A stretch of 64,000 bases of DNA from Minisyncoccota bacterium (GCA_028690055.1 JAQVBZ010000002.1:29978-93977), one strand, 5' to 3'; shown: positions 6,829 through 61,455, numbered from the stretch's first letter. A program made the numbers and translations. The notes: generated by a model not told the origin, from the letters alone.

Positions 6829-7203
6829 ATGTATGAAGTTCCGCCTAGTTTTGAAAAAAAACCGGAGCATATTCCAACTTTGGAAGAGATAAAATGGGTA
6901 TTGGAAGAATTAATGAAAGGAGAAAATTACAGTGAAGTCCGTTGCCTTAAAGATTCAGAGGGTATATATCTATTTGAAGTTAAAACTCGTGATAAATTAA
7001 CTGGTGAAATATTAGTACATAGCTATACAAGAAAAGGGCATCGCGAGAACTTCCCTAAGAGTTCTGAAACGGGGGTAGATATAGTCTATTACAAAGATGA
7101 AGATGCTTACAAAAAAGAGGATGTTGAATACGCAGAAGTTTTGGCAAAATATGTTGATGAAAATTGGGAGCTTCAAGCTAATGGAAATTGGGAAGATCTT
7201 TAA
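6829..7203 (+). CDS. Hypothetical protein, 124 aa
   Basis: ORF from the track; no convincing RBS; no recognisable domain. Confidence 0.35.
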   Translation: MYEVPPSFEKKPEHIPTLEEIKWVLEELMKGENYSEVRCLKDSEGIYLFEVKTRDKLTGEILVHSYTRKGHRENFPKSSETGVDIVYYKDEDAYKKEDVEYAEVLAKYVDENWELQANGNWEDL

Positions 7204-11190: not shown

Positions 11191-11218
11191 TTGACTTCAT
11201 TTTTAAAACTTATATAAT
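11191..11218 (+). promoter_or_regulatory. Sigma70-like promoter of the hrcA operon (TTGACT-16-TATAAT)
   Basis: TTGACT at 11191..11196, TATAAT at 11213..11218, immediately upstream of CIRCE. Confidence 0.55.
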
Positions 11219-11222
11219 GAGA

Positions 11223-11249
11223 TTAGCACTCTGGTAGGGCAAGTGCTAA
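11223..11249 (+). promoter_or_regulatory. CIRCE operator (HrcA binding site)
   Basis: TTAGCACTC-N9-AAGTGCTAA versus consensus TTAGCACTC-N9-GAGTGCTAA (1 mismatch), 19 nt upstream of the hrcA start. Confidence 0.9.
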
Positions 11250-11267: not shown

Positions 11268-12041
11268 ATGACCGATAGGCAGGAAATAATTTTGGGGGCG
11301 ATTGTGCGGGAATATATCGACAGTGCGCTGGCGGTGAGTTCTTCGCTACTGGCTGAAAGATGTGATTTTGGTCTGAGCTCGGCTACGCTGCGCGCGGAGA
11401 TGATGGCACTGGAGGAAGAGGGGCATCTCTATCAACCACACACCTCGGCGGGCAGGATTCCTACCGACCGAGGATTCCGTTATTTCGTGGATAGATTGAT
11501 GGAAGAGAGGCCGCTCGGTCTGCGTGAGCAGAAGGCGCTTCAGGTGGAAGTCCTGAAACTCAAGGCGAAGAACAAGATGTTGGCGCGCCAGACGGCAAAA
11601 TTGCTTTCCACGATGTCGGACAGTTTGGCTTTGAGCGGGCTGATTGATTCCGAAGATTTTTATAAATCGGGTACGCAGAAGTTACTTTCCAAGCCGGAGT
11701 TCAATAATTTGGACAGCGTATGCAAGATGGCGGAAGTGCTTGACTATCTCGATGAGAATGTGGAAGATCTCTGGAAGCGGCTTGAAGGCAGTACTAACTC
11801 GGAGATATTTATCGGCAAAGAAGGTCCGATCGGAGGAGTTGATGAATGCAGCATGGTGGTTTCGCGCTACAATCTGGAAGGCGGGGAGCAGGGCATCTTG
11901 GCAATCATCGGTCCTAAAAGAATGAAATATTCGCGTAACGTTTCCATTATTGAGTATTTCAAAAAGCTCTTGGGCGGAAATCTGTCGGTTGTCGCGGCTA
12001 TTATCGTGGCACAGGATATATTTTATGAAATAAGATACTAA
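11268..12041 (+). CDS. hrcA: Heat-inducible transcription repressor HrcA
   Basis: N-terminal winged-helix region (ILGAIVREYIDSALAVSSSLLAE), adjacent CIRCE element, followed by grpE-dnaK. Confidence 0.9.
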   Translation: MTDRQEIILGAIVREYIDSALAVSSSLLAERCDFGLSSATLRAEMMALEEEGHLYQPHTSAGRIPTDRGFRYFVDRLMEERPLGLREQKALQVEVLKLKAKNKMLARQTAKLLSTMSDSLALSGLIDSEDFYKSGTQKLLSKPEFNNLDSVCKMAEVLDYLDENVEDLWKRLEGSTNSEIFIGKEGPIGGVDECSMVVSRYNLEGGEQGILAIIGPKRMKYSRNVSIIEYFKKLLGGNLSVVAAIIVAQDIFYEIRY

Positions 12042-12044
12042 TCT

Positions 12045-12572
12045 ATGGAAAATTCTAAAGATGAAATAAACGAGGAAGAGAAAGAGATAATAGAGGAGAT
12101 CGAAGATAAAGAGGTTCCGGAGCTGGGGGTACAGCTACAAGCCGCGGAAAAAATGGCGGAAGAAAACCTGGCGGGCTGGCAGAGGGCAAAAGCGGATTTT
12201 ATGAATTACAAGAGGGATCAGGAGAGGATGTTCGGAGATTTTCGTAAGTATGCCAATGAGGATATGATTATCGCACTCTTGCCGATAGTGGATAGCTTCG
12301 ATTTGGCGACCAAGCATCTTCCGGACGAGCTTAAAGATTCAGATTGGGTGAAGGGCGTTATCTGCATAAAAGGGATGTTCGAAAATTTCCTGAAAGAAGC
12401 GGGAGTGAGTGATATAAAAACGCTGGGAGAAAAATTCGATCCGAATATTTTTGAGGCGGTGGGAGAAGAAGAGACGGAAGCTGAATCGGGAACTGTAATC
12501 GAGGAAATGCAGAAAGGATATAAGATGGGAGAGAAAGTGATACGGGCAGCGAAGGTGAAAGTGGCAAAATAG
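12045..12572 (+). CDS. grpE: Nucleotide exchange factor GrpE
   Basis: GrpE signature DFMNYKRDQERM...LPIVDSFD; position between hrcA and dnaK. Confidence 0.9.
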   Translation: MENSKDEINEEEKEIIEEIEDKEVPELGVQLQAAEKMAEENLAGWQRAKADFMNYKRDQERMFGDFRKYANEDMIIALLPIVDSFDLATKHLPDELKDSDWVKGVICIKGMFENFLKEAGVSDIKTLGEKFDPNIFEAVGEEETEAESGTVIEEMQKGYKMGEKVIRAAKVKVAK

Positions 12573-12698: not shown

Positions 12699-12890
12699 AT
12701 GTCAAAATTATACAAATGTGCAAAAGGATGTGGAAGCATCGAAGAGACCGATGAGAAGCAGATCCCAGCTTGCTGTGGAGTCGATATGGTGGAAATCTCC
12801 GAAGACGAGGTCTTTGGATGTGGCGGTTGCTGTTCTTGTTGTGGCGGATGTGGAACGGGGGAAGATGAAGATGTTAAAGATAAGAAGTAG
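12699..12890 (+). CDS. Small Cys-rich protein (13 Cys in 63 aa): desulforedoxin-like N-terminus plus a CGGCCSCCGGCG tail
   Basis: LYKCAKGCGSIEE...PACCGVDMVEI matches the desulforedoxin Fe(Cys)4 motif (VYKCELCGQVVKV...LVCCGEDMVK). No obvious SD sequence. It sits between grpE and dnaK. Confidence 0.5.
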   Translation: MSKLYKCAKGCGSIEETDEKQIPACCGVDMVEISEDEVFGCGGCCSCCGGCGTGEDEDVKDKK

Positions 12891-12945
12891 CAGGTTGGTT
12901 CATATCATATCATAACAAAGAATGCGAATAGGTTTGACGGGCAAT

Positions 12946-12992
12946 TATTCTCCCTCACACTAGCTCTCTCCCAGTAGGAGGGGAGGGCGAGA
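12946..12992. repeat. Family-3 repeat (degenerate copy)
   Basis: ttctccctcacactagCTCTCTCCCagtaGGAGGGGAGggcgag. Confidence 0.5.
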
Positions 12993-13099
12993 TAATATTT
13001 GATTGATCATTATCTTTGAATCGGTATCGCATCATAATGGCTGGGCGAATTAAGAAATAATTGCATAACAATAATTAAAAAATAAGAAAGGAGAACTAA

Positions 13100-15022
<1,923 letters not shown>

Positions 15023-15064
15023 TTTTTCTGTGTCGGGTTAAAATATATTGTTTTGTATCCTGTA

Positions 15065-15092
15065 GAGACGCGATTTATCGCGTCTCTTTTGT
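15065..15092 (+). terminator. Rho-independent terminator after dnaK (GTAG + AGAGACGCGAT-tt-ATCGCGTCTCT + TTTT)
   Basis: Perfect 11-bp stem and T-run. The same hairpin sequence recurs as an inverted pair at 26225..26314. Confidence 0.75.
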
Positions 15093-15141: not shown

Positions 15142-15685
15142 TCCGACCTCTAAGTCGAATTTGGATTACACTGGAAATGGTACGGATGCCGCGCGGAAAC
15201 GTTCTATAGCGTATCTCGTACCATTTCTGGTGTGATACGAAATGTCGAGAAAAAAGTTCTCTTCCTGTGAATCTTAATAAGCACGAAAAATACCTCCGCC
15301 ATCTTTCTCGGAAAAGTAAAACAGCGAGGGTATTTTTTGTATGTTTTTAGAACACTAAGATAGGATAAAATCGATAGTCGACTCAAACCATCCGTTTTCA
15401 GTGCCAGCGCGTAAAAATCCCAGGATTAGGAGGATTATCAATATATTTATAAAGCGGAGGGCGATTTTTTGTGAATCAGGCCGTCCCTGATACGCTGATT
15501 TTCTTATTCCTGCCATTTTTTCTAATTTATAGTGTATTACTTTACTCTTAATATACCGTAAAAATGCGGTATTGACAAGTTCACGATTTATGATAAAGTA
15601 TGAGTAAAGTTACTCTTCAAAAAAATGGTCTCCTAAATATAGGAAATAGGAGAAAAAACGGGGGAAGGGAAATTTAGAAATAAAA

Positions 15686-16093
15686 GTGAAGGTGAAGAAT
15701 ATGGATAAAAAGATTAGAATTGTTCGTACGAAGAAAGAAATCGAGAAAGACGAATTTGCCTCATTGAGATGGAGTCTTCTTTTGCCTAATGTTAGGAAAA
15801 TCGAAGAACAAGAAGCGGTGATTGCAAAATTCTCCCGCCACTCTCTTTCAACAGAGAAGAAACAAGAGCCTCTACCTACTTCGGAGGCTACCAATTTATT
15901 TAAGTGGATTCAATTTTCTAATAATCCTGCGGGGAGCACTGCTCCTACGCTAAAAGAGCTTGAGAGAAAGAAACTGAGTCTTCTTAGAGAGTCGGTGCTT
16001 CTAACTTGCACCGAGGATAGGATAGAAGAGATAGTGGTAGAGGTCGATCATATAGATAAAGTGTTGGGCAACTTTGTCTCTTTGCGTCCATAA
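15686..16093 (+). CDS. Hypothetical protein. Likely start is the ATG at 15701 (MDKKIRIV) with a GGTGA RBS.
   Basis: ORF from the track. No recognisable domain. Confidence 0.4.
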   Translation: MKVKNMDKKIRIVRTKKEIEKDEFASLRWSLLLPNVRKIEEQEAVIAKFSRHSLSTEKKQEPLPTSEATNLFKWIQFSNNPAGSTAPTLKELERKKLSLLRESVLLTCTEDRIEEIVVEVDHIDKVLGNFVSLRP

Positions 16094-33225: not shown

Positions 33226-33335
33226 AATTATTTCACTTTTATTCCCCTTCACCCCGACCCTCTCCCGGTTGGAGAGGGAGAAATTCCAAATGCAGTGTGA
33301 CTGGATTGTAGAACAGCTTTAGTTAATTTGGTATC
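33226..33335 (+). repeat. Family-3 ~110-bp element (TTATTCCCCTTCACCCCGACCCTCTCCC-GGTT-GGAGAGGGAGAAATTCC...GATTGTAGAAC...TTAATTTGGTAT)
   Basis: Near-identical to 40310..40415 along the full length; lies upstream of pyrG. Confidence 0.65.
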
Positions 33336-35174: not shown

Positions 35175-35280
35175 CGGAGTAGCAGACTTTAGTCTGCGCT
35201 GCTATCCTATGCGGATAGAACGTGCGATTGCGAAGGGTTTAGCGGTTTTGGATAAACGCGCAGGTTGAAACCTGCTGCTC
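35175..35280. repeat. REP/BIME-like inverted doublet (GGAGTAGC-CAGACTTTAGTCTG-GCGC ... GCGC-AGGTTGAAACCT-GCTGCTCC)
   Basis: Arms at 35175..35198 and 35257..35280. It overlaps the track's 35265 start of the next ORF, which argues for the later start at 35433. Confidence 0.7.
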
Positions 35281-35432
35281 CAAGATTTGAGATGTTTTTT
35301 AAGTTAGGGGAAAAATCACAAAATGTATCCATTCGATACCCAAGAGAAGAAGAGGTAAAATCGATAGCAGGACAAAATATATTTATGGTGACATTATCAT
35401 ATCAAGATAATAATTTAACGCTGAAGAAGAGA

Positions 35433-36263
35433 ATGAAAATTGAAATTGAGAAATTCAAGAACCTGAACAAGGATATCCGTAGTTTTCCTCTGACCGTACT
35501 CGGTGCCTGTCTTGTGTTGATAATAGCGGCCTTTTTCGGTTATATGATGCTTTTGTACGGTGATATGGATAAGCTCGGAACGCAGAATGATATTTCCGAG
35601 AAGTTCTACAATCAGCCAAAGGAGCCGGATGTGGCGGTAAAAGAAGATGCCGGTACCACTGAAGCTGTTGAAACGGTTCCTGATGATAAAACAACGCAAG
35701 AGGTGGTTGCGGCTAATGAAGTGGTGAAAATCCTAGCTAACGAAGATAGGACGGTCTTTGAGATTTGGAATCGCGGTGTAAAGGCAGGAGAGATAGAACA
35801 GGATTATCCGGCGCAAGTGAGCCTTTGGCGTGAAGTTAACGGCAATATCTATTTGGGAGTGAGCTATACGGGTCGAGGCGGATATATTTTGTTTGGTGGA
35901 CCTGACGAGGTTTATAAATTGGAAACTATTAAAAACTCTCTTAGTAAAGTATATGGCAGGGAAGATAAGAATGGATACGTATCGGACATTTCCTTGGATG
36001 AAGAACGATTGATAACCGTGAAGACGCCTGTTTCAGGCGCTTTATCTATCGTAGTATATGATATCGCTTCGCAAAGCATTCAACCATATCCAGTGCCTGC
36101 CCGATATAGTACTGCCGGTGAAGCTCGTTTTTCCCACGCGGGAGGGAAAATCTTATATGAAGCGGCGGTGGGAGACCCCAGTGCCGAGGAGTATGCGATG
36201 TTTATGATTGATCTTTCGACGGGGAAGCAGACTCAAGTAGGCAATCCTGAAATTATACGGTAG
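35433..36263 (+). CDS. Membrane-anchored hypothetical protein, paralog A of a tandem pair
   Basis: N-terminus MKIEIEKFKNLNKD with a TM helix, aligned to the paralog B N-terminus. Shared core TVFEIWNRGVKAGEIE...YLGVSYTGRGGYILFGGPDEVYKLET. The track start 35265 lies inside a REP doublet. Confidence 0.55.
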   Translation: MKIEIEKFKNLNKDIRSFPLTVLGACLVLIIAAFFGYMMLLYGDMDKLGTQNDISEKFYNQPKEPDVAVKEDAGTTEAVETVPDDKTTQEVVAANEVVKILANEDRTVFEIWNRGVKAGEIEQDYPAQVSLWREVNGNIYLGVSYTGRGGYILFGGPDEVYKLETIKNSLSKVYGREDKNGYVSDISLDEERLITVKTPVSGALSIVVYDIASQSIQPYPVPARYSTAGEARFSHAGGKILYEAAVGDPSAEEYAMFMIDLSTGKQTQVGNPEIIR

Positions 36264-36391
36264 GAGGAAGTTTATTGTTGATTTTTTATGATTCTGCGAT
36301 ATCTTTGGGCTCGGTCATTTCGACCGGGCCTTTTGTTTTGGAGCTATAGTGATATAATGGCCTTAAGCATAATCTATATGAGTCATCAAAA

Positions 36392-37249
36392 ATGAAAATC
36401 CATTACGAAAAATTTAAGGATCTGCCTAAAGATCTTATCGGCTTGCCGTCACTGATTGTTAAGGTTATTTTGGGTATGGCGCTGTTGCTGTTTTTGGGCT
36501 ATATTTTTTTGACGGGGGATAGTTTGCAGGATAAAAACGACGGGGCGGTAGATGAAAACATCGAAGTAAAGGACGATACTGTGGTTTCGGAAGGTGGGAG
36601 CGACGAGATACAGCAGGCGGCTATTTTAGGAGAGTCGGCCTTGTCGGAAACGAATATTATTTCGGGCGATATTAAGATTTCAAGCAATAAAGACCTGACA
36701 ATTTTTGAAATCTGGAACGGTGAAACTAAAGCGGGAGAAATTGAGAGAGAGGGTCCTTCACAGGTTGCGGTCTGGAAAGAAATAGGAGGCAGTGTATATT
36801 TGGGGGTAAATAACGACGGATTGGGCGGGTATATACTGTTTGGTGGACCCGATGAGGTTTATAAACTTGATACGAAAAAAGGTTCACTGACTAGGGCATT
36901 AACTAAGATATTCGACCGGGACATGTTTGCTTCGGATATTTCTGCGGATGAGAAACACCTAGCTTCTGTGGAGACTTTCTTTATGGGAGAGGAGATCCAT
37001 AATTATATCAATGTTTACAATTTGGCTGACTATAAATCTGAATCTTATCAGGTACCCGTCAAATATAGAGTTGCAGGCAACGCTTTCTTCTCTAGAGACG
37101 GCAAAAAAGTAGTGTATGAGGCGGCCGTGTCCGATCCTGAGAATGAGGAATTTGCGATGTTTGTGATTGATTTGACGACAGGAAAGCAAACACAAATCGG
37201 CGGGACCGATGTTTACGGTAAAGCTGAGGAATGGGCAAAGGATAATTAA
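36392..37249 (+). CDS. Membrane-anchored hypothetical protein, paralog B
   Basis: MKIHYEKFKDLPKD + TM; about 45-50% identity to paralog A across the C-terminal 200 aa, including the FAMFVIDLTTGKQTQIG motif. Confidence 0.6.
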   Translation: MKIHYEKFKDLPKDLIGLPSLIVKVILGMALLLFLGYIFLTGDSLQDKNDGAVDENIEVKDDTVVSEGGSDEIQQAAILGESALSETNIISGDIKISSNKDLTIFEIWNGETKAGEIEREGPSQVAVWKEIGGSVYLGVNNDGLGGYILFGGPDEVYKLDTKKGSLTRALTKIFDRDMFASDISADEKHLASVETFFMGEEIHNYINVYNLADYKSESYQVPVKYRVAGNAFFSRDGKKVVYEAAVSDPENEEFAMFVIDLTTGKQTQIGGTDVYGKAEEWAKDN

Positions 37250-37676
37250 TGTTTTTCGCAACCTAGGAGCCTATCTTATTTTTTGTACTTATTATCATAG
37301 AAATTTCCCCTTTTTTCTTGTCAAAGCGATGATATCGTGCTAGTTTGTAAATATGTTTGATAAAGATGAAGCAAAAACAGAAGCGACAGGAATAGGAGAA
37401 AAATGGCCGAAGGGAGGTTATTCTCCGAGAAACTCATTGTCTGAGTCTGGTTAGCCCATTATAAAAGAATTAGGAGGATCGATTTATTATTGCGGCATAA
37501 TATGTATTGCATATATTCTAGGGCTTACGATGTTGATTCTGGGAGTTATTATTTCCTGTTGTTTTAGAAAAAAAGATATCTATTAAAATTTTTTTAAGAT
37601 TATCGTCGCAGACTTTTAAAGTATTTGCTGTTAATAGGATAAACTTCTTAACAGCTTTTTTATTTGATAATAAGGT

Positions 37677-38213
37677 TTGAATGTGCTATCTTTCTTAAAG
37701 CAGAATAAAAATATAAAGGAGGTAGATAAAATAACAGAGGAAATATTTTCTATTCCAGTTTCTTTGAAGATAGAGTTAAAAAAAGTTCGAGAGATTTGCG
37801 ACTCATTGGCGCTGGCAGAAGCTAGAGTTAGGGAGTTAATCGCTTCGATATACGAAAAAACGCAAAGGTTTAACGAAACAAGCGGATGCTTGTTTGTGGA
37901 TACTGAACAGATGATTCCTGACTGGAATCCTCACTGTACCTTCGGTAGCTTGGATGAAACGGTGCACTTTCTGGTGAGGAGGGTAGGAAGGCGTGAAGGC
38001 GTTGTCGGGGAAGCGGAACTCGAGAAAATGAGGTGCGACCTGCAGGAATTTCTGATGAAAGCGTTTGATGGTGAGGAGACACAGATAGAAGTGGAATTTA
38101 CTCGGGATTGTCTCGGGTACGAACCAAAAAAATATGGACATAAGAAAAAAGAAACGGCCGAGAGCGATTCGTGCTCTGCAATTCTGTTTTCAATAGAGAA
38201 TCAGATCAGCTGA
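37677..38213 (+). CDS. Hypothetical protein, 178 aa
   Basis: ORF from the track. No recognisable domain. Confidence 0.4.
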   Translation: MNVLSFLKQNKNIKEVDKITEEIFSIPVSLKIELKKVREICDSLALAEARVRELIASIYEKTQRFNETSGCLFVDTEQMIPDWNPHCTFGSLDETVHFLVRRVGRREGVVGEAELEKMRCDLQEFLMKAFDGEETQIEVEFTRDCLGYEPKKYGHKKKETAESDSCSAILFSIENQIS

Positions 38214-40309: not shown

Positions 40310-40415
40310 ATGATTTTACTTTTATTCCCCCTCACCCCGACCCTCTCCCGATGGGAGAGGGGGAAATTTCATACTGTACGATTGGATTGTAGAATAAATT
40401 AATTTAATTTGGCAT
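40310..40415 (+). repeat. Family-3 ~110-bp element (TTATTCCCCCTCACCCCGACCCTCTCCC-GATG-GGAGAGGGGGAAATTTC...GATTGTAGAAT...TTAATTTGGCAT)
   Basis: Best-preserved copy; see 33226. Confidence 0.65.
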
Positions 40416-40648: not shown

Positions 40649-41095
40649 ATGTCGGCAGATGAAATCATTGACAAGTATCAGGTAAAAATCAAGATACTGT
40701 CCGTTTGCGTTTTGATTTTTTCTCTGGGCTTTGCCTGCGGTTATTATTATCTCAGTGAGAATAAAAGCGGAGCCGAAGTTGCCATAGAGGATAAAAGCGC
40801 GGACTGTTCAGCTCTTTTTGAAAGAAACGCCCGGGTAGCTGTCGTTAGTACTGTCACCGCTTCGAATTCTCAAAATGAAACGGCACAAGACTCGGCAGGT
40901 ATGGTTCTTTCCGAAACTATCTCCGGTGCAGAGGTAGTCGAGCATCAATTCGCGGCAAGTAAAAACAGTACTCTTTATCATACCCGAAATTGCCAATATG
41001 TCAAACGTATCAAGCCGGAAAATCTGGTATGGTTCAATTCGGCCGCGGAGGCAGAGGCAGCAGGCAAGACGGCGCATAGTTGTGTTGATGAGTGA
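40649..41095 (+). CDS. Hypothetical exported or membrane-anchored protein with an Ada-like metal-binding motif at the C-terminus
   Basis: N-terminal TM. C-terminal HTRNCQYVKRIKPENLVWFNSAAEAEAAGKTAHSC resembles the Ada_Zn_binding fold (C...ENxxFFxSxxEAxxAGFRPC). Confidence 0.45.
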   Translation: MSADEIIDKYQVKIKILSVCVLIFSLGFACGYYYLSENKSGAEVAIEDKSADCSALFERNARVAVVSTVTASNSQNETAQDSAGMVLSETISGAEVVEHQFAASKNSTLYHTRNCQYVKRIKPENLVWFNSAAEAEAAGKTAHSCVDE

Positions 41096-41232
41096 TTTTG
41101 ACTTTAAAGTTTGTTGGTGTTAGACTTTAGATAAGAAAAAGCACCTTGAAAAAGAGCGTAGGAAAAGATTCCTGGGCTCTTTTCGTACATTGAAAAATTA
41201 TCCCTTCACAGAAACAAAGGGGTGCGTGAAAT

Positions 41233-42195
41233 ATGTCGAGAGAAGCAAAGTGGGAAAGAGGTGTTCAATGGCCGGATAGGGATTGGACTTACCAATCCAG
41301 GTATATAAAGATGTGGCAATTAGAACAGATCGAAGATATGACCGGGCGCAAGCTGTCTAATCTTAAGAGAAAAAACCAACATCATCCTGTCCCCTCGGTT
41401 TTGGCGGATACGGTTGGATATCTTATGCGAATAGATTTTCAAACCGAAGATTCTCACTATTCTTTTATCATTAAGAATATCAGGAATTTGCTGAAACAGA
41501 TGGATTGTGCGGAGGAAGATATAGGGCAAAAAACCGAAGACAACAAAAATGGTAAGGGGAAAAAAGATGTCAGCATCAAGAAGATTAAGAATAAATTAAA
41601 AAGTTTGATTCTAGAGCTTGCGAGCCAAAACTATTATTATGTACCGCAGTTCTTGCACGAATTATTCAACAGGCTTTTTGCCGGCGAGCTTACTCCGGCA
41701 GAGGTTTTGCTCAAGCTGGAGTGGATGTTCGACAAGAGAAGAAATTATTGCGGAGAAAATAAAGAGAACCTTGTGGATTTTCTTTTAAGCGTATGCATCT
41801 TGGAAAAAAAACGCATCTTTACGAAGGCGGAAAAAGAAAGAATTCGCGTTATCAGAAATAGTGCGGATGATGTCCACCCCGTATTGTTGCTGAAAACGTT
41901 GGGGTTGGAAATAAGCGACATTGTAGATGCGCTGTCTCGATATTTTTTCCATCCCTATTGGGGAATGGAGAGATTCAAGAAGCATTTCTTGTTGCTGATG
42001 TTCTTAAAACCTCCCGATCGGCTGAAAAAAACTAACATGTCCATGTATTTGGAATACTACAAGCACAATGGTATCCATAATGTTTTGCGCAATATGAACG
42101 AGGAGGAGATACGGCTCTTAAAGTATTTTTTGAATCGTTTCTCACAAATGGAATGGGAAGACTCTAAAGAATCTCATCTGGATCAACATCAATGA
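41233..42195 (+). CDS. Hypothetical protein, 320 aa
   Basis: ORF from the track. Its 3' end overlaps the priA 3' end convergently by 32 nt. Confidence 0.45.
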   Translation: MSREAKWERGVQWPDRDWTYQSRYIKMWQLEQIEDMTGRKLSNLKRKNQHHPVPSVLADTVGYLMRIDFQTEDSHYSFIIKNIRNLLKQMDCAEEDIGQKTEDNKNGKGKKDVSIKKIKNKLKSLILELASQNYYYVPQFLHELFNRLFAGELTPAEVLLKLEWMFDKRRNYCGENKENLVDFLLSVCILEKKRIFTKAEKERIRVIRNSADDVHPVLLLKTLGLEISDIVDALSRYFFHPYWGMERFKKHFLLLMFLKPPDRLKKTNMSMYLEYYKHNGIHNVLRNMNEEEIRLLKYFLNRFSQMEWEDSKESHLDQHQ

Positions 42196-50321: not shown

Positions 50322-50375
50322 TTTCTCCCTCTCCCGTCGGGAGAGGGTCGGGGTGAGGGGGAATAACAATTAATT
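50322..50375 (-). repeat. Family-3 repeat, reverse orientation
   Basis: The reverse complement reads TTATTCCCCCTCACCCCGACCCTCTCCC-GACG-GGAGAGGGAGAAAAC. Confidence 0.6.
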
Positions 50376-50401
50376 CCTTTGGTGTTTAATAATAAAGTGC
50401 G

Positions 50402-54848: not shown

Positions 54849-56174
54849 ATGCTCAATACAAAAAGGATTCGAAAGTCATTTCCTGCCATACGGTGCGGAA
54901 GAATGATTTCCAATAATGCTGCAAGCACCCAAATTCCGGTCCAGTTATTGGATTTGATGAAAAAGCTTGCCGTGAGTTATGATAATGTCCATAGAGGGCA
55001 GTCTCGGTCTTCGATATTGACGACAGAAGCGTTTGAGTCATCTTATGACACTATCGCGCAATTCATTGGTGCTCCGTCGCGGAGGAACATCGTGTTGTAC
55101 AGGAATACCACGGAGGCAATCAACGCCGTAATGTATTCCCTGATGACTGAATTTCACGATGGGGATAATGTGGTTACGACGTACATGGAACATAATTCGA
55201 ACTATGTCCCGTGGTACGGGCTTACGCATGAGATATTGCCTAAGTTTGGAATTAATGTCGAATGCAGGCTCGCAAAATTTGACAAGGAAACAGGAAAACT
55301 CGACCTTGATCATTTGAGCTCGCTGGTGGACAAGAAGACCAAACTTGTCTGCTGTACGGGAGCTTCAAACTTTTTGGGTACCAAAACTCCGATAAAAGAA
55401 ATTCGAAGGATAGCGGATGCGAGCGGATACAAGCAGCCGACAGGTGAGAATAAATCCTACCTACTTATTGATGGTGCTCAGACTGTTCCGAACACCTATA
55501 TAAATGTGAAGGAATTGGATATCGATTTTCTTGCCTGGTCTTTTCACAAGATGATTTCTCCTTTCGGTGTCGGAGCTTTGTATGCGAAAGAAGACTTATT
55601 GAAAAATATGAGGCCGTTTCTCTATGGCGGGGATATGATTGCCGACGGGATGGTAACGCCGGAGAAAGTGTCATATAATTCGCTGCCTTGGAAGTTTACA
55701 GCAGGGACCCCCAATATTCTGGGAACCATATTGTCCGCTCAAGGTTTGCGATTGCTTATGGATTTTTCTTTAGACAAGAAAAAATATTTTATGACTGGCA
55801 AGGCGCTGGATTCTTCCGATATAAAGACAGCTATGGAAAATATAGAAGCGCACGAAACAGCTTTGATAGGAGAAGCGATGAAGATACTGAGCGAAATTCC
55901 GTCACTTAAAATTTATGGACCAAAGGATCCCAAGGATAGGACCTCTTTGGTTTCTTTTAATTATGAAGGCATAAGCCCCTTTAAGATTGCGGAGGAGCTG
56001 AATGAATTCAATGTAGAATCCAGAGCCGGATGCCATTGCGCTACTCTGGCACACTACTACTATGGTTTGACCTTACCGGCAAGTTGCAGGTTGAGTTTTT
56101 ATGTTTATAACGACATTAAAGATGTTAGAAAGGCTTGCGATGCAGTCAAAAAATGTGTACAATTTAAGAGCTGA
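54849..56174 (+). CDS. Class V aminotransferase, cysteine desulfurase-like (SufS/CsdA family)
   Basis: PLP fold; the Lys-bearing motif SFHKMISPFGVGALY (SxHK) and the C-terminal Cys-loop region ...SRAGCHCA... 441 aa. Confidence 0.85.
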   Translation: MLNTKRIRKSFPAIRCGRMISNNAASTQIPVQLLDLMKKLAVSYDNVHRGQSRSSILTTEAFESSYDTIAQFIGAPSRRNIVLYRNTTEAINAVMYSLMTEFHDGDNVVTTYMEHNSNYVPWYGLTHEILPKFGINVECRLAKFDKETGKLDLDHLSSLVDKKTKLVCCTGASNFLGTKTPIKEIRRIADASGYKQPTGENKSYLLIDGAQTVPNTYINVKELDIDFLAWSFHKMISPFGVGALYAKEDLLKNMRPFLYGGDMIADGMVTPEKVSYNSLPWKFTAGTPNILGTILSAQGLRLLMDFSLDKKKYFMTGKALDSSDIKTAMENIEAHETALIGEAMKILSEIPSLKIYGPKDPKDRTSLVSFNYEGISPFKIAEELNEFNVESRAGCHCATLAHYYYGLTLPASCRLSFYVYNDIKDVRKACDAVKKCVQFKS

Positions 56175-56199
56175 ATCCTAAAGAACTAAAATAAAAAAC

Positions 56200-56625
56200 A
56201 TGCAACAATGTTCAATCTATGATAAATCTCTAAGATTTTCTAGATTTGTTTATAGTGTTATGGTTTTGTGTGCATATTTCCTCCAAGACAAATGGCTGGT
56301 TTTGACTGTAAGTATCTTAACGATTATGGGCGCATTTTCTTTGAGTTTTAATATTCCTTATCATCTTCACAGGCTTTACTCAAAGAGAAATAATATTGGT
56401 CCGTCAAATAAGGATTTCGGAGAGCTGAGCTTCGTTTCTGGCATTACCGGTATATTGCTTCTAGCAGGATTCCTGTTATTGCAGTATACTGAATATACTA
56501 CTTTCGCTTGGGCTTATATCTTAGTAGTTGTCGCGATGTTATTTATGGCCTGCCTTGTCGGTTTTTGCGTAGCGACGCTGATGTATATCCTTATAAGAAA
56601 CAAATTCAATCATAAACGTGGCTAA
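56200..56625 (+). CDS. Hypothetical membrane protein (4 predicted TM helices)
   Basis: Hydrophobic ORF abutting the HK gene. Confidence 0.45.
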   Translation: MQQCSIYDKSLRFSRFVYSVMVLCAYFLQDKWLVLTVSILTIMGAFSLSFNIPYHLHRLYSKRNNIGPSNKDFGELSFVSGITGILLLAGFLLLQYTEYTTFAWAYILVVVAMLFMACLVGFCVATLMYILIRNKFNHKRG

Positions 56626-57944
56626 TGAGTTTAAAAACAAAAAATCAAATCACACCGAGAGAGGCCGTAAAAAGCTGTAATTTTAATAGCAGTTGCTGGC
56701 TAGTGGACAATCTTCAATATCCTCCCTATAAGCGCTGTCAATACTGCGAACTTAAGTTTCGCAAGTGTTTGTTCCTGCAATATCAGGTTATTACTTTCGT
56801 TTTGATAGTCTTTTCTTTTTCTTCGCTGTTCTTATTCGAAAAAAGGATATCGCCTCCTGTAATCATAGTCGTATTCGTTATGGTTGTCGTTTATGGATAT
56901 TTTTTCAATAGCAGCACTGAAAAAATCATCAAGTCTCATTTTTTGGAAAGAAAAGCTAAAAATGAGTTGAAAGAGCTTTCGGAAAAGCTGGAAGAAAAGG
57001 TTGAGGGGCAGACAAGAGATATGCGGGAACAGAATTTGCATTTAGAAGAGCTTTTGAATATGAAGGGTGATTTTTTGCGCACAGTAAATCATCAGCTCAA
57101 TACTCCGCTGACGATAATGAAGAATGCCTTTGCTATGATGAAAGACAAATCTCTTTCAAGCGAACAGGGGATGAAAATAGCCGCACATGGGCTGGAAAGG
57201 ATGAGCAGTACGATTGAGGATTTTTGGAATGCCTTCGAATTGGATGAGCAGAAGGAGCCTGTGGATCTGGCTGAAACGGATATAGAGACGATTGTCAAAG
57301 ATATGATGAAGGAGAAGAAAAAAATGGAGCTGGCTATTGCCAGGAAACTATCGATCAGATTGATTAAGCCGGATTGGGCTGTGCCGAAAGTATTGTGCGA
57401 TCATAGGACGATAGGGCAGGCGATTTCCAATTTGTTGGATAATGCGGTCTTTTATACTCAGAAGGGGTCAATCAAGGTCTGGTTTGAAAAGATAAGGATA
57501 TGTGGGAAGGATTTCCTAAAAATATTTATCTCAGATACGGGAGAGGGCATTTCTCTGGAAGACCGGGAAGATATATTTGAAAAATTTTTCAGAGGTTCGG
57601 CGACAGCCTCCATCAATCCGAATGGGTCGGGGCTCGGTCTCTATATAGCAAGAAATATCGTGGAAAGCAGTGGGGGGGAGATTAAGTTGGAGCAAACAGA
57701 TGTAGGCAGAGGTACTACTTTCAGTTTCACTCTGAGAATCGCAAAATCAGAAAATAAGGCGAAGAAGTTGGCTTCGAAAAGGGCAGTCGCTGATTGCGGT
57801 AAAAGCGCTCAAAGACAGCCCGATGGTGGAAAAGTTGGCAGCGGAAATTTTGGACATCTGGAACGTAACGGTGCCGTTATCAAGAAACGAAGTGATGTGC
57901 AGGAAATAGCAGAATCAAACGGAGTGTTTGCGCATTTTACATAA
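56625..57944 (+). CDS. Sensor histidine kinase (HisKA + HATPase_c) with a C-terminal extension derived from a duplicated rpsG 3' end
   Basis: H-box FLRTVNHQLNTPL; N, G1 and G2 boxes (LLDNAVFYT; SDTGEGI; GSGLGLYIARNIVE). The last ~49 codons are about 85% nt-identical to rpsG 54489..54644. Confidence 0.8.
   Translation: MSLKTKNQITPREAVKSCNFNSSCWLVDNLQYPPYKRCQYCELKFRKCLFLQYQVITFVLIVFSFSSLFLFEKRISPPVIIVVFVMVVVYGYFFNSSTEKIIKSHFLERKAKNELKELSEKLEEKVEGQTRDMREQNLHLEELLNMKGDFLRTVNHQLNTPLTIMKNAFAMMKDKSLSSEQGMKIAAHGLERMSSTIEDFWNAFELDEQKEPVDLAETDIETIVKDMMKEKKKMELAIARKLSIRLIKPDWAVPKVLCDHRTIGQAISNLLDNAVFYTQKGSIKVWFEKIRICGKDFLKIFISDTGEGISLEDREDIFEKFFRGSATASINPNGSGLGLYIARNIVESSGGEIKLEQTDVGRGTTFSFTLRIAKSENKAKKLASKRAVADCGKSAQRQPDGGKVGSGNFGHLERNGAVIKKRSDVQEIAESNGVFAHFT
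57799..57944 (+). repeat. Direct repeat: degenerate copy of the rpsG 3' terminus (54489..54644), with indels; the last 23 codons are in the S7 frame (AVIKKRSDVQEIAESNGVFAHFT versus AAIKKRDDVQKMAESNRAFAHFA)
   Basis: Manual nucleotide alignment: gctgattgcgg...cgcattttacataa versus gctgattgcgg...cgcattttgcatag. A terminator-like hairpin follows both copies. Confidence 0.85.
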
Positions 57945-59229: not shown

Positions 59230-61455
59230 ATGGACATTAACCTTGTGGATGAGAATGTGGTGTTTGTTACTTTGATTGTTATCGCGGACATCTATCTCGG
59301 GTGTTGGGTTTATCTTAGCAATAAAAAATCGAATGCTAACAGGCAGTTTCTTGGTTTAACTCTGCTTCTCTTTTTGTGGGCATTATTCTGCTACGAGAAA
59401 AGTATTCTTCCCGCGTATATCAGTATCGTTCTTGTAAGATCCGCCTATGCCGTGGTTGCTTTATTTTTTGCTTTATTCCATTTCTTTCTTAACAATTTTC
59501 CCAAAGAAGGGAAGACTAATCGGATTTTTGACAAAATAATTCTTTGTGTCGGTGCTTTTCTCGCACTTTTTTCTTTCGATGAAAGTATGGTGGAAGGTAT
59601 AATTGTCATTAATGATAAAAACGTTCCCGCGCTGGGTGACGGACGGTTTATTTATTTGGGTCTGATATCACTTTTGATTTTATTTATTACAGTCAAATTC
59701 TTCAGGAAATATCGGAATTTTTCTAAAGTAGAGAAACTCAAGGCGGAATATTTTTTTATTGGATTTGTTATTTTTATAGCCATAAACTTTGTTTTTAATA
59801 TAGCTATTCCTGTATTGCAGGGGAATGCTCAATATTCTTGTCTGGGAAATCATGCGGCAATATTTTTTTTGGTTTTGACTGCTTATGCAATCGTCAAGCG
59901 TGAACTTATGGATATAGAGACTCTGCTTGCACAGATGTTGGTTGTAATTATTTCTTTTTTACTCTTTCTGGATATAATCTTTTTTTCAAATAGTTCCAGT
60001 ATCCAAGTGATAAAAATCGGCATCTTGCTGATATTTATTTTTTTAGGTAAGAAATTAGTAAAAAGTGTAAAGTCGGAAATCGAAGCGAAAGAAAAAATAC
60101 AGAAGGTGAATTCCAGTCTAAAGGAGAGAAATCAAGACCTTCACACTCTGTTCGAGACGAGCAATCGAGTGAGCCAAAGCCTTGATTCCAAAAAGATTTC
60201 ACAGGACGTTGTGGATAGCATACCTAAAGATTTGAAATATTTGGGTTATGCGTTCGGTGTAATCGCGCTTTATGATAAAGAAAAGGATTGTCTATGCGTA
60301 TATGCAGTTACAGATTCTGCATTGATGCGTAAGATGGAGGAAGAGACCCAGATTTCCATCAGCCAATTCCGCAAACACTTGTCTACGCATAATAATCTTA
60401 TAATCCGTACTATTAAAGATAAGAAGACTTACGTCGGCGACAATCTGGAGGATTTTTTTAGCGGTCTCATAGAAAAGGAAAAAAATGAGGAGATGCAGAA
60501 GATTTTGAAAGTGGGATCTTTTGTTTCGGTTCCTCTTTTTTCGTCCAGACGGGCGATAGGTGCTATTATTTTCGCTAATGAGAAGCAGGTCGGTTCTATC
60601 ACGGAAAGGAGCAAGGATATTATTTGCGCCTTTGCGTCTCACATCGGATCCTCTATTGAAAACGCGCAGCTTTACGAGAAGACTAACTCTCAGATGAAGG
60701 AAAAAGCACATCTTAACATAAGCTTACGTAAAGCGAATATTAAACTCAATGAGCTTTTGGAAATGAAGAATGAATTTTTACACATAACCTCTCATCAACT
60801 CAGGACTCCGATGACCGCCATCCGTGGAATGATTTCAATGTGGATCGAGGGAGACTTTGATAAGATGCCCAAGAAGAGAAAGGGTGAGATGCTAAGTAGG
60901 ATTTATGCCAGCGCGGAACGTCTCAATAATATCACTAACGATATGCTGGATGCATTGGAGTTTGAAGGTGGTGTTACGCAGATAACTTTCCAAAAGGTTA
61001 ACGTAGTGGAAATTATTAATGGCATGATAGAGACATTGAAATCGGAATATGATAAGAGGGGTTTATACCTGAGGCTCAGTGCTGTCAAGGAAGAGATTCC
61101 GGAAGTGGAGGGTGAGGCAAATTATTTGGGGCAGGTGTTTATGAATCTCATCGACAATGCCTGCAAGTATACGCGGAAGGGAGGGGTAAAAATTACTGTG
61201 AAAGCCGGCGTCAAATACGTCTACGTTTCTATTAGTGATACTGGTATCGGTATAGATCGGGAAGATAAAGGGAAAATTTTCGATAAATTTACTCGAGGTA
61301 AGAACGCTATGACGGAAAACGCTTCGGGGAGCGGCTTAGGTCTTTTTGTTGTTAAAAAGATCCTTGATGAGCATAACGGTAAAATAGCGATAAAAAGCAA
61401 TGGTGTGAGGAAGGGGACGACCTTTGAAGTTTCTCTTCTTATAAAGCAAAAATAA
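59230..61455 (+). CDS. Sensor histidine kinase with N-terminal multi-TM sensor, GAF-like domain, HisKA and HATPase_c
   Basis: About 8 TM helices; H-box FLHITSHQLRTPMTAI; N and G boxes (LIDNACKYT; SDTGIGI; GSGLGLFVVKKIL). Confidence 0.85.
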   Translation: MDINLVDENVVFVTLIVIADIYLGCWVYLSNKKSNANRQFLGLTLLLFLWALFCYEKSILPAYISIVLVRSAYAVVALFFALFHFFLNNFPKEGKTNRIFDKIILCVGAFLALFSFDESMVEGIIVINDKNVPALGDGRFIYLGLISLLILFITVKFFRKYRNFSKVEKLKAEYFFIGFVIFIAINFVFNIAIPVLQGNAQYSCLGNHAAIFFLVLTAYAIVKRELMDIETLLAQMLVVIISFLLFLDIIFFSNSSSIQVIKIGILLIFIFLGKKLVKSVKSEIEAKEKIQKVNSSLKERNQDLHTLFETSNRVSQSLDSKKISQDVVDSIPKDLKYLGYAFGVIALYDKEKDCLCVYAVTDSALMRKMEEETQISISQFRKHLSTHNNLIIRTIKDKKTYVGDNLEDFFSGLIEKEKNEEMQKILKVGSFVSVPLFSSRRAIGAIIFANEKQVGSITERSKDIICAFASHIGSSIENAQLYEKTNSQMKEKAHLNISLRKANIKLNELLEMKNEFLHITSHQLRTPMTAIRGMISMWIEGDFDKMPKKRKGEMLSRIYASAERLNNITNDMLDALEFEGGVTQITFQKVNVVEIINGMIETLKSEYDKRGLYLRLSAVKEEIPEVEGEANYLGQVFMNLIDNACKYTRKGGVKITVKAGVKYVYVSISDTGIGIDREDKGKIFDKFTRGKNAMTENASGSGLGLFVVKKILDEHNGKIAIKSNGVRKGTTFEVSLLIKQK

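What the first reader, a model, noticed from the sequence alone, without database searches (positions are those of the whole stretch)
12699..12890. Desulforedoxin-like, extremely Cys-rich mini-protein inserted in the hrcA-grpE-dnaK operon; dnaJ absent
The 63-aa ORF has 13 cysteines. Its N-terminal half matches the desulforedoxin Fe(Cys)4 motif (YKC-x2-CG...CCG-x-DM), and its tail is CGGCCSCCGGCG, metallothionein-like. It occupies the grpE-dnaK spacer. The usual dnaJ, whose own zinc finger is Cys-rich, does not follow dnaK; a terminator and about 650 bp of non-coding DNA follow instead. The ORF has no SD sequence, so translation is uncertain.
Basis: partly seen in the sequence, partly recalled or inferred. 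Interest (0 to 1): 0.6.

Follow-up and report, generated by a model that had tools for sequence, protein, structure and literature searches.

The report
Cysteine-rich mini-protein in heat-shock operon
A real, conserved 63-residue protein gene sits inside the heat-shock chaperone operon of a small group of ultra-small (Patescibacteria) bacteria; its front half resembles the iron-binding protein desulforedoxin and its back half is a second cysteine cluster, so it is probably a stress-induced metal/redox protein whose exact role is untested.

Summary
The ORF at 12699-12890 (+) is real, but it has 10 cysteines, not 13, and its first knuckle is C-x3-C, not C-x2-C.

It is a protein-coding gene under purifying selection. 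Non-synonymous differences are 0.10-0.28 while synonymous sites are saturated.

In all roughly 20 lineages found, all Patescibacteria/Paceibacteria, it lies inside hrcA-grpE-(hsp20)-dnaK behind a single CIRCE operator. One lineage has the order hrcA-mini-hsp20-grpE-dnaK.

Residues 1-40 are desulforedoxin (Dx)-like:
- The family profile hits only desulfoferrodoxin and desulforedoxin in all PDB sequences (best E 0.009).
- Two AlphaFold models have 1DXG, 1DFX and 2JI2 as top Foldseek matches.
- Pfam's own Dx model does not score it.

Residues 41-52 form a second cluster of 4-6 Cys.

The missing Shine-Dalgarno (SD) site is normal for this genome. dnaJ is absent from the operon, from about 72 kb around it and from ±6-10 kb in relatives. 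Absence from the whole genome was not testable, and CPR bacteria generally keep dnaJ.

Best reading: an HrcA-controlled two-site metal-thiolate stress protein. A redox or electron-transfer role is slightly favoured over a DnaK/sHsp accessory role. The family is tiny (9 clusters among 1.84 billion representatives) and unannotated. Interest is moderate.

The parts
11191..11218 (+). sigma-70-like promoter TTGACT-16-TATAAT of the operon
   Evidence: 11 of 12 consensus match. This is a consensus match only, not shown to be functional.
11223..11249 (+). CIRCE operator (HrcA binding site) TTAGCACTC-N9-AAGTGCTAA
   Evidence: One mismatch to consensus, with 0.02 expected by chance. It is the only CIRCE in the window. 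A CIRCE is found upstream of hrcA in every related locus L001-L021 except L011.
11268..12041 (+). hrcA
   Evidence: PF01628 on the identical gene in L001.
12045..12572 (+). grpE
   Evidence: PF01025.
12699..12890 (+). the mini-protein gene (63 aa, 10 Cys)
   Evidence: ORF listed. 19 + 8 homologue clusters found. Purifying selection shown. Position in the operon is conserved.
12699..12818 (+). residues 1-40: desulforedoxin-like Cys4 domain (C7, C11, C25, C26) plus the conserved acidic linker EISEDE
   Evidence: AF2 pLDDT about 85. Foldseek top hits are 1DXG, 1DFX, 2JI2 and 1VZG. The family profile hits only Dfx/Dx among PDB sequences, E 0.009-0.14.
12819..12854 (+). residues 41-52: second cysteine cluster CGGCCSCCGGCG
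   Evidence: C44 and C51 are invariant and C41 is nearly so. Each homologue has at least 4 Cys here, except L022 which has 3. The minimal form is C-x2-C-x2-C-x3-C. AF2 confidence is below 50.
12855..12887 (+). residues 53-63: variable acidic tail TGEDEDVKDKK
   Evidence: Not conserved in length or sequence across homologues, and basic in L029.
12945..12993 (+). copy of a dispersed intergenic hairpin repeat that lengthens the mini-dnaK spacer; not part of the gene
   Evidence: 4 copies in the window against 0 expected. Alignment A3. Relatives have spacers of 40-54 nt here.
13103..15022 (+). dnaK, with an AAGGAG SD sequence
   Evidence: PF00012. SD shown.
15064..15087 (+). intrinsic terminator closing the operon
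   Evidence: 10-bp stem with 6 GC pairs, followed by a T tract.

Best explanation
Shown:
- The ORF is a translated, selected gene of a small lineage-specific family.
- It is co-transcribed with hrcA-grpE-(hsp20)-dnaK from one CIRCE-controlled promoter. It is therefore made when HrcA repression is lifted by heat or proteotoxic stress.
- Its first 40 residues adopt the desulforedoxin fold and keep all four metal-ligand cysteines.
- It carries a second cluster of 4-6 cysteines on a flexible acidic tail.

Inferred:
- The Dx-like site binds one metal ion through four thiolates. Iron is expected, as in every characterised Dx domain; zinc is possible.
- The tail binds a second ion or a small cluster.
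- The protein acts as a stress-induced redox-active metal-thiolate module in these anaerobes. It would pass electrons to oxidative-stress enzymes such as the Dx-less 1Fe superoxide reductase that lies next to the operon in some lineages. It could also buffer thiols or metals released when metalloproteins unfold.
- Sitting in the chaperone operon gives it stress-inducible expression in a genome with few regulators.
For: Real gene:
- pN 0.10-0.28 against saturated pS. Third codon positions vary about twice as much as the first two.
- The protein is 65-75% identical across lineages. That is similar to HrcA and higher than GrpE.

Operon membership:
- The gene is in the operon in every lineage examined. 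One lineage, L018, has a rearranged order.
- In relatives the spacers to its neighbours are mostly 25-55 nt.
- There is a single conserved CIRCE.

Dx homology:
- The profile search hits only Dfx and Dx in PDB.
- hhalign gives P = 8.7e-4.
Rmsd to 1DXG is 1.4 A over 33 columns.
- Similarity extends into the Dfx linker (DMxxMSEN against DMVEISED).
- P0023 keeps the canonical C-x2-C knuckle.

Link to superoxide reductase (SOR):
- A 117-aa PF01880 SOR without a Dx domain lies 0.9-1.6 kb downstream of dnaK in L009/L015, L014 and L016.

Metal chemistry of Dx/centre I as Fe(Cys)4: PMC3116461.
Against: - The Pfam Dx model (PF06397) does not score the protein.
- The ligand spacing is CX3CX13CC, not CX2CX15CC.
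- The Foldseek E-values (0.7-1) are not significant on their own.
- No SOR or rubredoxin is found in the 64-kb window. The SOR neighbour is seen in only 3-4 lineages and is separated from dnaK by a convergent gene.
- An electron-carrier role explains neither the second Cys cluster nor the strict retention of the gene between chaperone genes.
- No metal binding, expression or interaction data exist.
Confidence: 0.38

Rival explanations
1. Chaperone accessory. The mini-protein binds a component of the DnaK system (DnaK, GrpE, Hsp20 or HrcA). Its Cys4 sites would serve as structural zinc or as a redox switch. It would act like an escort, assembly or sensor factor, comparable to Hep1/Zim17, DafA or the Hsp33 zinc switch. 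It might take over functions from a dnaJ that has left the operon.
For: - The gene is retained inside the operon in 100% of lineages, even when the gene order changes. It is always next to hsp20 where hsp20 is present (L018, L014, L009, L024).
- Intergenic distances are tight.
- dnaJ is missing within ±6-10 kb in all mini-bearing loci. More distant CPR relatives without the gene have dnaK followed by dnaJ (L036, L039, L054).
- HrcA C152/C194, GrpE C107 and DnaK C314 are cysteines specific to the mini-bearing clade.
Against: - There is no homology to any co-chaperone: no J domain, no zf-DNL, no CxxCxGxG repeats.
- L035 has hrcA-grpE-hsp20-dnaK without the mini gene and also without a nearby dnaJ. 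Loss of dnaJ from the operon is therefore not tied to the mini gene.
- The clade-specific cysteines are confounded with phylogeny.
- The Dx fold has no known chaperone-binding role.
Confidence: 0.3
2. Pure metal buffer, like a metallothionein. The protein would sequester Zn, Cu, Cd or Fe released during proteotoxic stress and would have no redox or partner function.
For: - Cysteine makes up 16% of the protein, with CC and CxxC motifs and a Gly-rich tail predicted to be disordered.
- Derived members add further Cys doublets.
- The corA Mg/Co transporter gene is a conserved divergent neighbour of hrcA.
Against: - No metallothionein family hit.
- The minimal members have only 7-8 Cys, arranged as two discrete four-Cys sites rather than a multinuclear cluster.
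- The folded Dx-like domain is the most conserved part of the protein.
Confidence: 0.14
3. Iron-sulfur carrier or scaffold that works with DnaK, by analogy with IscU-HscA. The C-x2-C-x2-C-x3-C tails of a Dx-type dimer would hold [4Fe-4S] or [2Fe-2S] clusters for the repair of damaged Fe-S proteins.
For: - The minimal tail motif has ferredoxin spacing (L009, L014, L016, L018, P0023).
- Dx itself is a homodimer (general knowledge, PDB 1DXG).
- The gene is adjacent to an Hsp70 gene.
Against: - No Fer4 or any other Fe-S family hit.
- No Pro follows the fourth Cys, and the tail has no hydrophobic shielding.
- Many members change the spacing to C-x2-CC-x2-C-x2-C.
- The class-V aminotransferase in the window is 42 kb away.
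Confidence: 0.1
4. Ribosomally made peptide precursor (RiPP). The N-terminus would be a leader and the Cys/Gly-rich C-terminus a core modified by a maturase.
For: - The Gly/Cys/Ser-rich C-terminal stretch superficially resembles thiazole/oxazole or ranthipeptide cores.
- A SPASM-domain gene lies upstream of grpE-mini in L023.
- A MacB-type exporter cluster lies downstream in many loci.
Against: - The SPASM gene is present in only one lineage.
- No radical-SAM, YcaO or Lan enzyme was found among 46 window ORFs scanned.
- The supposed leader is itself a folded four-Cys domain.
- The exporter linkage is lost in L011 while the operon position of the mini gene is kept.
Confidence: 0.03
5. Chance ORF in a GC-rich repeat, not a gene.
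For: - No SD sequence.
- No database family hit.
- The tail DNA is internally repetitive.
Against: - The protein sequence is conserved while synonymous sites are saturated.
- Flanking spacers are not conserved.
- Most genes in this genome lack an SD sequence.
Confidence: 0.01

Closest known systems
Desulforedoxin (D. gigas Dx, PDB 1DXG) and the N-terminal centre-I domain of 2Fe superoxide reductase / desulfoferrodoxin (1DFX, 2JI1, 1VZG; Pfam PF06397)
   Same: - About 36-40 residue beta-hairpin fold.
- YKC..CG...CCGxxM signature with an adjacent Cys pair, and four Cys ligands.
- Similarity continues into the Dfx inter-domain linker.
- These are the only PDB relatives by profile search and the best by fold search.
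   Different: - The first knuckle is C-x3-C in 20 of 21 lineage copies, and the inter-knuckle loop is two residues shorter.
- The protein is not recognised by the Pfam model.
- It carries an extra 4-6 Cys tail in place of nothing (Dx) or an SOR domain (Dfx).
- It is encoded in a heat-shock operon of Patescibacteria rather than with redox genes.
Metallothioneins
   Same: High Cys density, CC and CxxC motifs, and a tail that is disordered without metal.
   Different: - No sequence homology.
- Only 4-6 Cys in the tail.
- Half of the protein is a discrete folded domain.
DnaJ zinc-finger-like region (4 x CxxCxGxG)
   Same: A Cys- and Gly-rich metal-binding element that belongs to the DnaK system.
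   Different: - The motif is not present in the window protein. Only a partial CxxCxG is seen in L009, L014 and L016.
- No J domain and no Pfam hit.
- Related CPR lineages have a normal type-I DnaJ.
Hep1/Zim17/Tim15 (zf-DNL Hsp70 escort protein; PMC3461517, PMC4890766)
   Same: A small Cys4 metal-ribbon protein dedicated to an Hsp70. This is a functional analogy only.
   Different: - Eukaryotic organellar protein with a different fold family and 2 x CxxC.
- No sequence or fold match here.
DafA of Thermus thermophilus (DnaK-DnaJ assembly factor; PMC3727329)
   Same: A lineage-restricted small protein associated with the DnaK chaperone system. That DafA is encoded within the dnaK operon is from my own knowledge, not from the cited passage.
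   Different: DafA is not reported to be Cys-rich or metal-binding (own knowledge), and no homology was detected here.
C(P)XCG zinc-finger micro-proteins of Haloferax volcanii (PMC11241148, PMC6562870)
   Same: Proteins under 70 aa built around Cys knuckles, several of them linked to stress adaptation.
   Different: Archaeal, with one zinc site and a different motif. No link to a chaperone operon.

Membership tests
Desulforedoxin / Dx domain (centre I, PF06397) | Four Cys ligands with CX2CX15CC spacing (PMC3116461) | tested here: not met
   The window protein is CX3CX13CC. 20 of 21 lineage copies are CX3C, and one (P0023/L023) is CX2CX13CC. All four Cys, including the adjacent pair, are invariant.
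Desulforedoxin / Dx domain (centre I, PF06397) | Scores above the Pfam/NCBIfam family threshold | tested here: not met
   No hit at E<=10. The reverse search does work: the family profile finds 1DFX at E 0.0088, 1VZG at 0.02, 2JI1/2JI2 at 0.033 and Dx at 0.14, and nothing else in PDB.
Desulforedoxin / Dx domain (centre I, PF06397) | Dx fold | tested here: met
   Two AF2 models have N-terminal-domain pLDDT of about 80-85. 1DXG is the top Foldseek hit for both (rmsd 1.4 and 2.0 A; TM-score normalised to the target 0.67 and 0.63), followed by Dfx chains. The E-values themselves are not significant because the domain is so small.
Desulforedoxin / Dx domain (centre I, PF06397) | Binds Fe in a distorted tetrahedral Fe(Cys)4 site and forms a homodimer | not testable with these tools
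   Requires expression and spectroscopy.
Metallothionein | Homology to a metallothionein family, with multinuclear thiolate clusters | tested here: not met
   No Pfam or NCBIfam hit. The tail has only 3-6 Cys. Metal stoichiometry is not testable here.
DnaJ-type zinc finger (PF00684) | Repeated CxxCxGxG motifs | tested here: not met
   The tail CGGCCSCCGGCG contains no CxxCxGxG motif, and there is no Pfam hit.
Hsp70 escort protein zf-DNL (PF05180) | DNL zinc ribbon with 2 x CxxC | tested here: not met
   No Pfam hit. The fold search returns Dx, not zf-DNL structures.
Bacterial ferredoxin [4Fe-4S] motif | CxxCxxCxxxCP within a Fer4 fold | tested here: inconclusive
   The spacing C-x2-C-x2-C-x3-C is present in L009, L014, L016, L018 and P0023, and embedded in the window's tail. 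There is no Pro, no Fer4 hit, and no confident fold for the tail.
RiPP precursor | Adjacent, co-conserved maturase gene | tested here: not met
   A SPASM gene is found only in L023. No maturase was found among the window ORFs scanned.
HrcA/CIRCE heat-shock regulon | Located in a transcription unit preceded by a CIRCE inverted repeat | tested here: met
   CIRCE at 11223-11249 with one mismatch, conserved in relatives. No terminator is predicted between hrcA and the end of dnaK. Co-transcription itself has not been measured.

The most novel reading that the evidence does not exclude
The mini-protein is a previously unknown kind of Hsp70/small-Hsp accessory factor. It would be a two-site metal-thiolate micro-protein that docks on DnaK, GrpE or Hsp20, couples chaperone activity to the redox or metal state of the cell, and partly takes over the zinc-finger role of a dnaJ that has left the operon in this clade.
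Probability: 0.2. Interest if true: 0.75.

Novelty: new variant of a known kind. Interest (0 to 1): 0.47.

Why it matters
Patescibacteria have very small genomes, so a gene kept inside their main chaperone operon across many species is likely to matter for survival under stress.

The family is unannotated ('hypothetical protein', no Pfam or NCBIfam model). It joins a recognisable iron-thiolate redox domain to a second cysteine cluster in a setting where no such protein has been described.

- If it is a redox helper, it shows how oxygen-sensitive ultra-small bacteria tie oxidative defence to the heat-shock response.
- If it binds the chaperones, it would be a new type of bacterial Hsp70 cofactor.

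Either way, at 55-70 residues it is a tractable target for expression, spectroscopy and binding assays.

Tried and rejected
- **Single-sequence searches:** Pfam, NCBIfam and PDB phmmer gave nothing.
- **RNA families:** Rfam on 10.7-17 kb found only sub-threshold noise.
- **RNA structure in the two spacers:** not better than shuffled sequence, z about -0.4.
- **hsp20 relic in the window's 212-nt spacer:** none detectable. The extra length comes from a dispersed hairpin repeat.
- **dnaJ:**
  - tblastn with E. coli DnaJ found nothing in the window. The weak hits lie in the PriA Cys region.
  - Nothing was found in any mini-bearing locus.
  - Extending by about 6 kb to the right and 2 kb to the left of the window also found none.
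  - The whole genome could not be reached.
- **SOR or rubredoxin in the window:** none.
- **Mimicry of the DnaK C-terminus (EEVKDKK) by the mini tail:** compositional only and limited to a subclade.
- **Clade-specific cysteines in HrcA, GrpE and DnaK:** real but confounded by phylogeny.
- **RiPP idea:** rejected on context.
- **Literature:** no paper links desulforedoxin to a dnaK operon gene of this kind or to CPR bacteria.

Full report
**1. Observation**

The window holds an ATG ORF at 12699-12890 (+) that encodes MSKLYKCAKGCGSIEETDEKQIPACCGVDMVEISEDEVFGCGGCCSCCGGCGTGEDEDVKDKK. It lies between grpE (12045-12572) and dnaK (13103-15022).

Two details in the finding are wrong. There are 10 cysteines, not 13. 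The first knuckle is C-AKG-C (C-x3-C), not C-x2-C.

A strong stem-loop terminator follows dnaK at 15064-15087. No dnaJ follows.

**2. Is it a gene?**

Single-sequence searches of Pfam, NCBIfam and PDB found nothing, even at E<=10.

The 5.8-billion-protein search returned 19 clusters of 55-80 aa. All that carry a name are 'hypothetical protein' from Patescibacteria, Paceibacteria or Pacebacteria MAGs. An exhaustive profile search of 1.84 billion representatives found only 9 clusters. The family is therefore real but very small.

In alignments A1 and A2, C7, C11, C25, C26, C44 and C51 are invariant and C41 is nearly so, together with K3, G12, P23 and M30.

Between lineages, non-synonymous differences are 0.10-0.28 per site while synonymous sites are saturated at 0.64-1.07. 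Over 21 lineage copies, differences at codon positions 1/2/3 are 0.26/0.22/0.55.

The protein is 65-75% identical across lineages. That matches HrcA and exceeds GrpE. The flanking spacers are not alignable apart from the dnaK ribosome-binding site.

The missing Shine-Dalgarno sequence is not informative. hrcA, grpE, dnaB, cysS, rplI, pyrG and most other genes here also lack one. The chance-ORF reading is refuted.

**3. Context**

A sigma-70-like promoter (11191-11218) is followed by a one-mismatch CIRCE element (11223-11249) just upstream of hrcA. It is the only CIRCE in the window. The equivalent site is present in every related locus L001-L021 except L011.

The mini gene lies inside the operon in every lineage recovered:
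- hrcA-grpE-mini-dnaK in the window, L005, L006, L010, L011, L012, L016, L017, L019-L022 and L027-L034. In L016 a decayed hsp20 start lies between the mini gene and dnaK (see section 8).
- hrcA-grpE-mini-hsp20-dnaK in L009/L015, L014 and L023/L024.
- hrcA-mini-hsp20-grpE-dnaK in the most divergent genome, L018, where DnaK is 62% identical.

The wider neighbourhood changes while this linkage holds. L010 has a phage integrase upstream and L011 has RNase Y downstream.

Only 10 of 185,579 GTDB species representatives carry the gene.

Relatives found through GrpE show where the family ends:
- Every locus with GrpE at least 66% identical carries the mini gene, apart from L030, whose contig ends about 200 bp after grpE.
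- L035 (DnaK 78% identical) has hrcA-grpE-hsp20-dnaK with an empty 315-nt spacer.
- More distant CPR loci have grpE-hsp20-dnaK, or grpE-dnaK followed 1-1.3 kb later by a canonical type-I dnaJ.

**4. dnaJ**

No J-domain or DnaJ match was found in the 64-kb window. The weak hits there fall in the Cys-rich region of PriA. None was found within ±6-10 kb of any mini-bearing locus. None was found in about 8 kb of extra flank reached from the window edges.

Absence from the whole genome could not be tested. A survey of more than 30,000 genomes states that CPR bacteria retain DnaK/DnaJ/GrpE (PMC12641178). dnaJ is therefore most likely elsewhere in this genome.

L035 lacks both the mini gene and a nearby dnaJ. 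The two features are not obviously coupled.

**5. What the protein is**

AlphaFold2 with the family alignment gives a confident beta-rich domain for residues 1-40 (pLDDT about 85) and no confident structure for residues 42-63. A second member, P0016, gives the same result.

Foldseek against 350,542 PDB chains ranks desulforedoxin 1DXG first for both models. Rmsd is 1.4 and 2.0 A over 33 columns. The Dx domains of desulfoferrodoxins 1DFX, 2JI1/2JI2 and 1VZG follow. The E-values are about 1, as expected for a 36-residue domain.

Independently, the family profile searched against all 177,635 distinct PDB sequences returns only these same proteins: 1DFX at E 0.0088, 1VZG at 0.02, 2JI1/2JI2 at 0.033 and Dx at 0.14. 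hhalign against Dx gives P = 8.7e-4.

The alignment continues into the Dfx linker (DMKLMSEN against DMVEISED). One family member, P0023, has the canonical C-x2-C knuckle.

The N-terminal half is therefore a divergent Dx-type domain. It does not satisfy the curated CX2CX15CC pattern (PMC3116461) or the Pfam model.

The tail always contains C44 and C51, nearly always C41, and at least one of C47 or C48. Minimal members read C-x2-C-x2-C-x3-C, with 8 Cys in total. The window's version adds C45 and C48. The residues after C51 vary, are usually acidic, and are basic in L029.

**6. Mechanism**

Shown:
- The gene is selected.
- It belongs to a CIRCE-headed chaperone operon.
- It has a Dx-like Cys4 domain and a second Cys cluster.

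Inferred: the protein is a stress-induced, two-site metal-thiolate protein.

I slightly favour a redox or electron-transfer and thiol/metal-protective role (0.38). Three points support this:
- Every characterised Dx domain is an Fe(Cys)4 redox centre.
- The hosts appear to be anaerobes (inferred from Paceibacteria ecology and the presence of SOR, not tested here).
- Three to four lineages place a Dx-less 1Fe superoxide reductase just downstream of dnaK.

The main rival is a direct accessory of DnaK, GrpE or Hsp20 (0.30). Its support is the unbroken operon linkage and the constant adjacency to hsp20.

Lesser rivals:
- a metallothionein-like buffer (0.14);
- an Fe-S carrier using the ferredoxin-spaced tail (0.10);
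- a RiPP precursor (0.03). A SPASM gene is adjacent in one lineage only, and no maturase was found in the window.

**7. Comparison and novelty**

The closest known relatives are desulforedoxin and centre I of 2Fe-SOR. Functional analogies are Hep1/Zim17 (PMC3461517), DafA (PMC3727329), the Hsp33 zinc switch (own knowledge) and the haloarchaeal zinc-finger micro-proteins (PMC11241148).

Literature searches found no description of such a gene in a dnaK operon or in CPR bacteria.

I rate it a new variant of a known kind: a Dx-type domain with a new appended Cys cluster and a new genomic setting. Interest is moderate. The family is narrow and its function is unproven, but the gene is small, well conserved and easy to test.

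**8. Side observations**

- A conserved 53-aa membrane-type ORF lies on the minus strand in the supposed non-coding DNA after dnaK.
- A dispersed, roughly 45-nt hairpin repeat has four copies in the window. One copy accounts for the long spacer between the mini gene and dnaK.
- L016 carries a decayed hsp20 start between the mini gene and dnaK.

Noticed in passing
window 15355-15516 (-): A conserved 53-aa ORF, probably a small membrane protein, with the motif Y.G.P...GF..AG...GWF. Homologues sit in the same position in L006, L009, L010 and L014. No Pfam hit.
   Followed up: partly
window 12945-12993 (+), about 33239-33290 (+), about 40322-40370 (+), about 50330-50386 (-); also L029 4521-4570: A dispersed intergenic hairpin repeat of about 45 nt (TTATTCCCCCTCACCCCGACCCTCTCCC-N4-GGGAGAGGG). 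There are four copies in the window against zero expected. One copy lies in the mini-dnaK spacer. It may be a REP/MITE-like or terminator-like element.
   Followed up: partly
L016 10229-10267: A truncated hsp20 start (MDIIKWSPSIGV*) between the mini gene and dnaK. hsp20 appears to have decayed in this lineage, which suggests that hrcA-grpE-mini-hsp20-dnaK is the older arrangement.
   Followed up: partly
L014 13630-13983, L016 13953-14306, L009 11571-11769: A 117-aa 1Fe superoxide reductase (PF01880) with no Dx domain lies 0.9-1.6 kb downstream of dnaK. In L014 an ArsR-type HTH gene follows it. The window has no equivalent.
   Followed up: partly
L029 4224-4499: The mini-protein homologue here is 91 aa. 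It carries a long lysine-rich basic C-terminal extension (KKVSATKKKVSKPKAAK...) in place of the usual acidic tail.
   Followed up: no
window-wide (e.g. starts at 11268, 12045, 32659, 33495): Most genes lack a Shine-Dalgarno sequence, whereas dnaK (AAGGAG) and rny (AGGAG) have one. Translation initiation in this organism is largely SD-independent.
   Followed up: partly
window HrcA C152/C194 (11721-11723, 11847-11849), GrpE C107 (12363-12365), DnaK C314 (14042-14044): These cysteines are conserved in 13-15 of 15 mini-bearing lineages. At three of the four positions they are absent from relatives that lack the mini gene; DnaK C314 occurs in 3 of 8 of them. They could be partner ligands or simply markers of the clade.
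   Followed up: partly
L023 3-458: A SPASM-domain (radical-SAM accessory) gene lies directly upstream of grpE-mini, in place of hrcA. It is seen in this one lineage only.
   Followed up: partly
window 15686-16093 (+), 6829-7203 (+), 35265-38213 (+), 40649-42195 (+): Several conserved ORFs of 120-330 aa have no Pfam family. One is the 130-aa gene that occupies the slot where relatives have SOR.
   Followed up: no
window 54849-57944 (+): A class-V aminotransferase (cysteine-desulfurase-like) is followed by a DUF4395 gene and then a histidine kinase (56625-57944), apparently as one unit. A second histidine kinase lies further downstream at 59230-61455.
   Followed up: no
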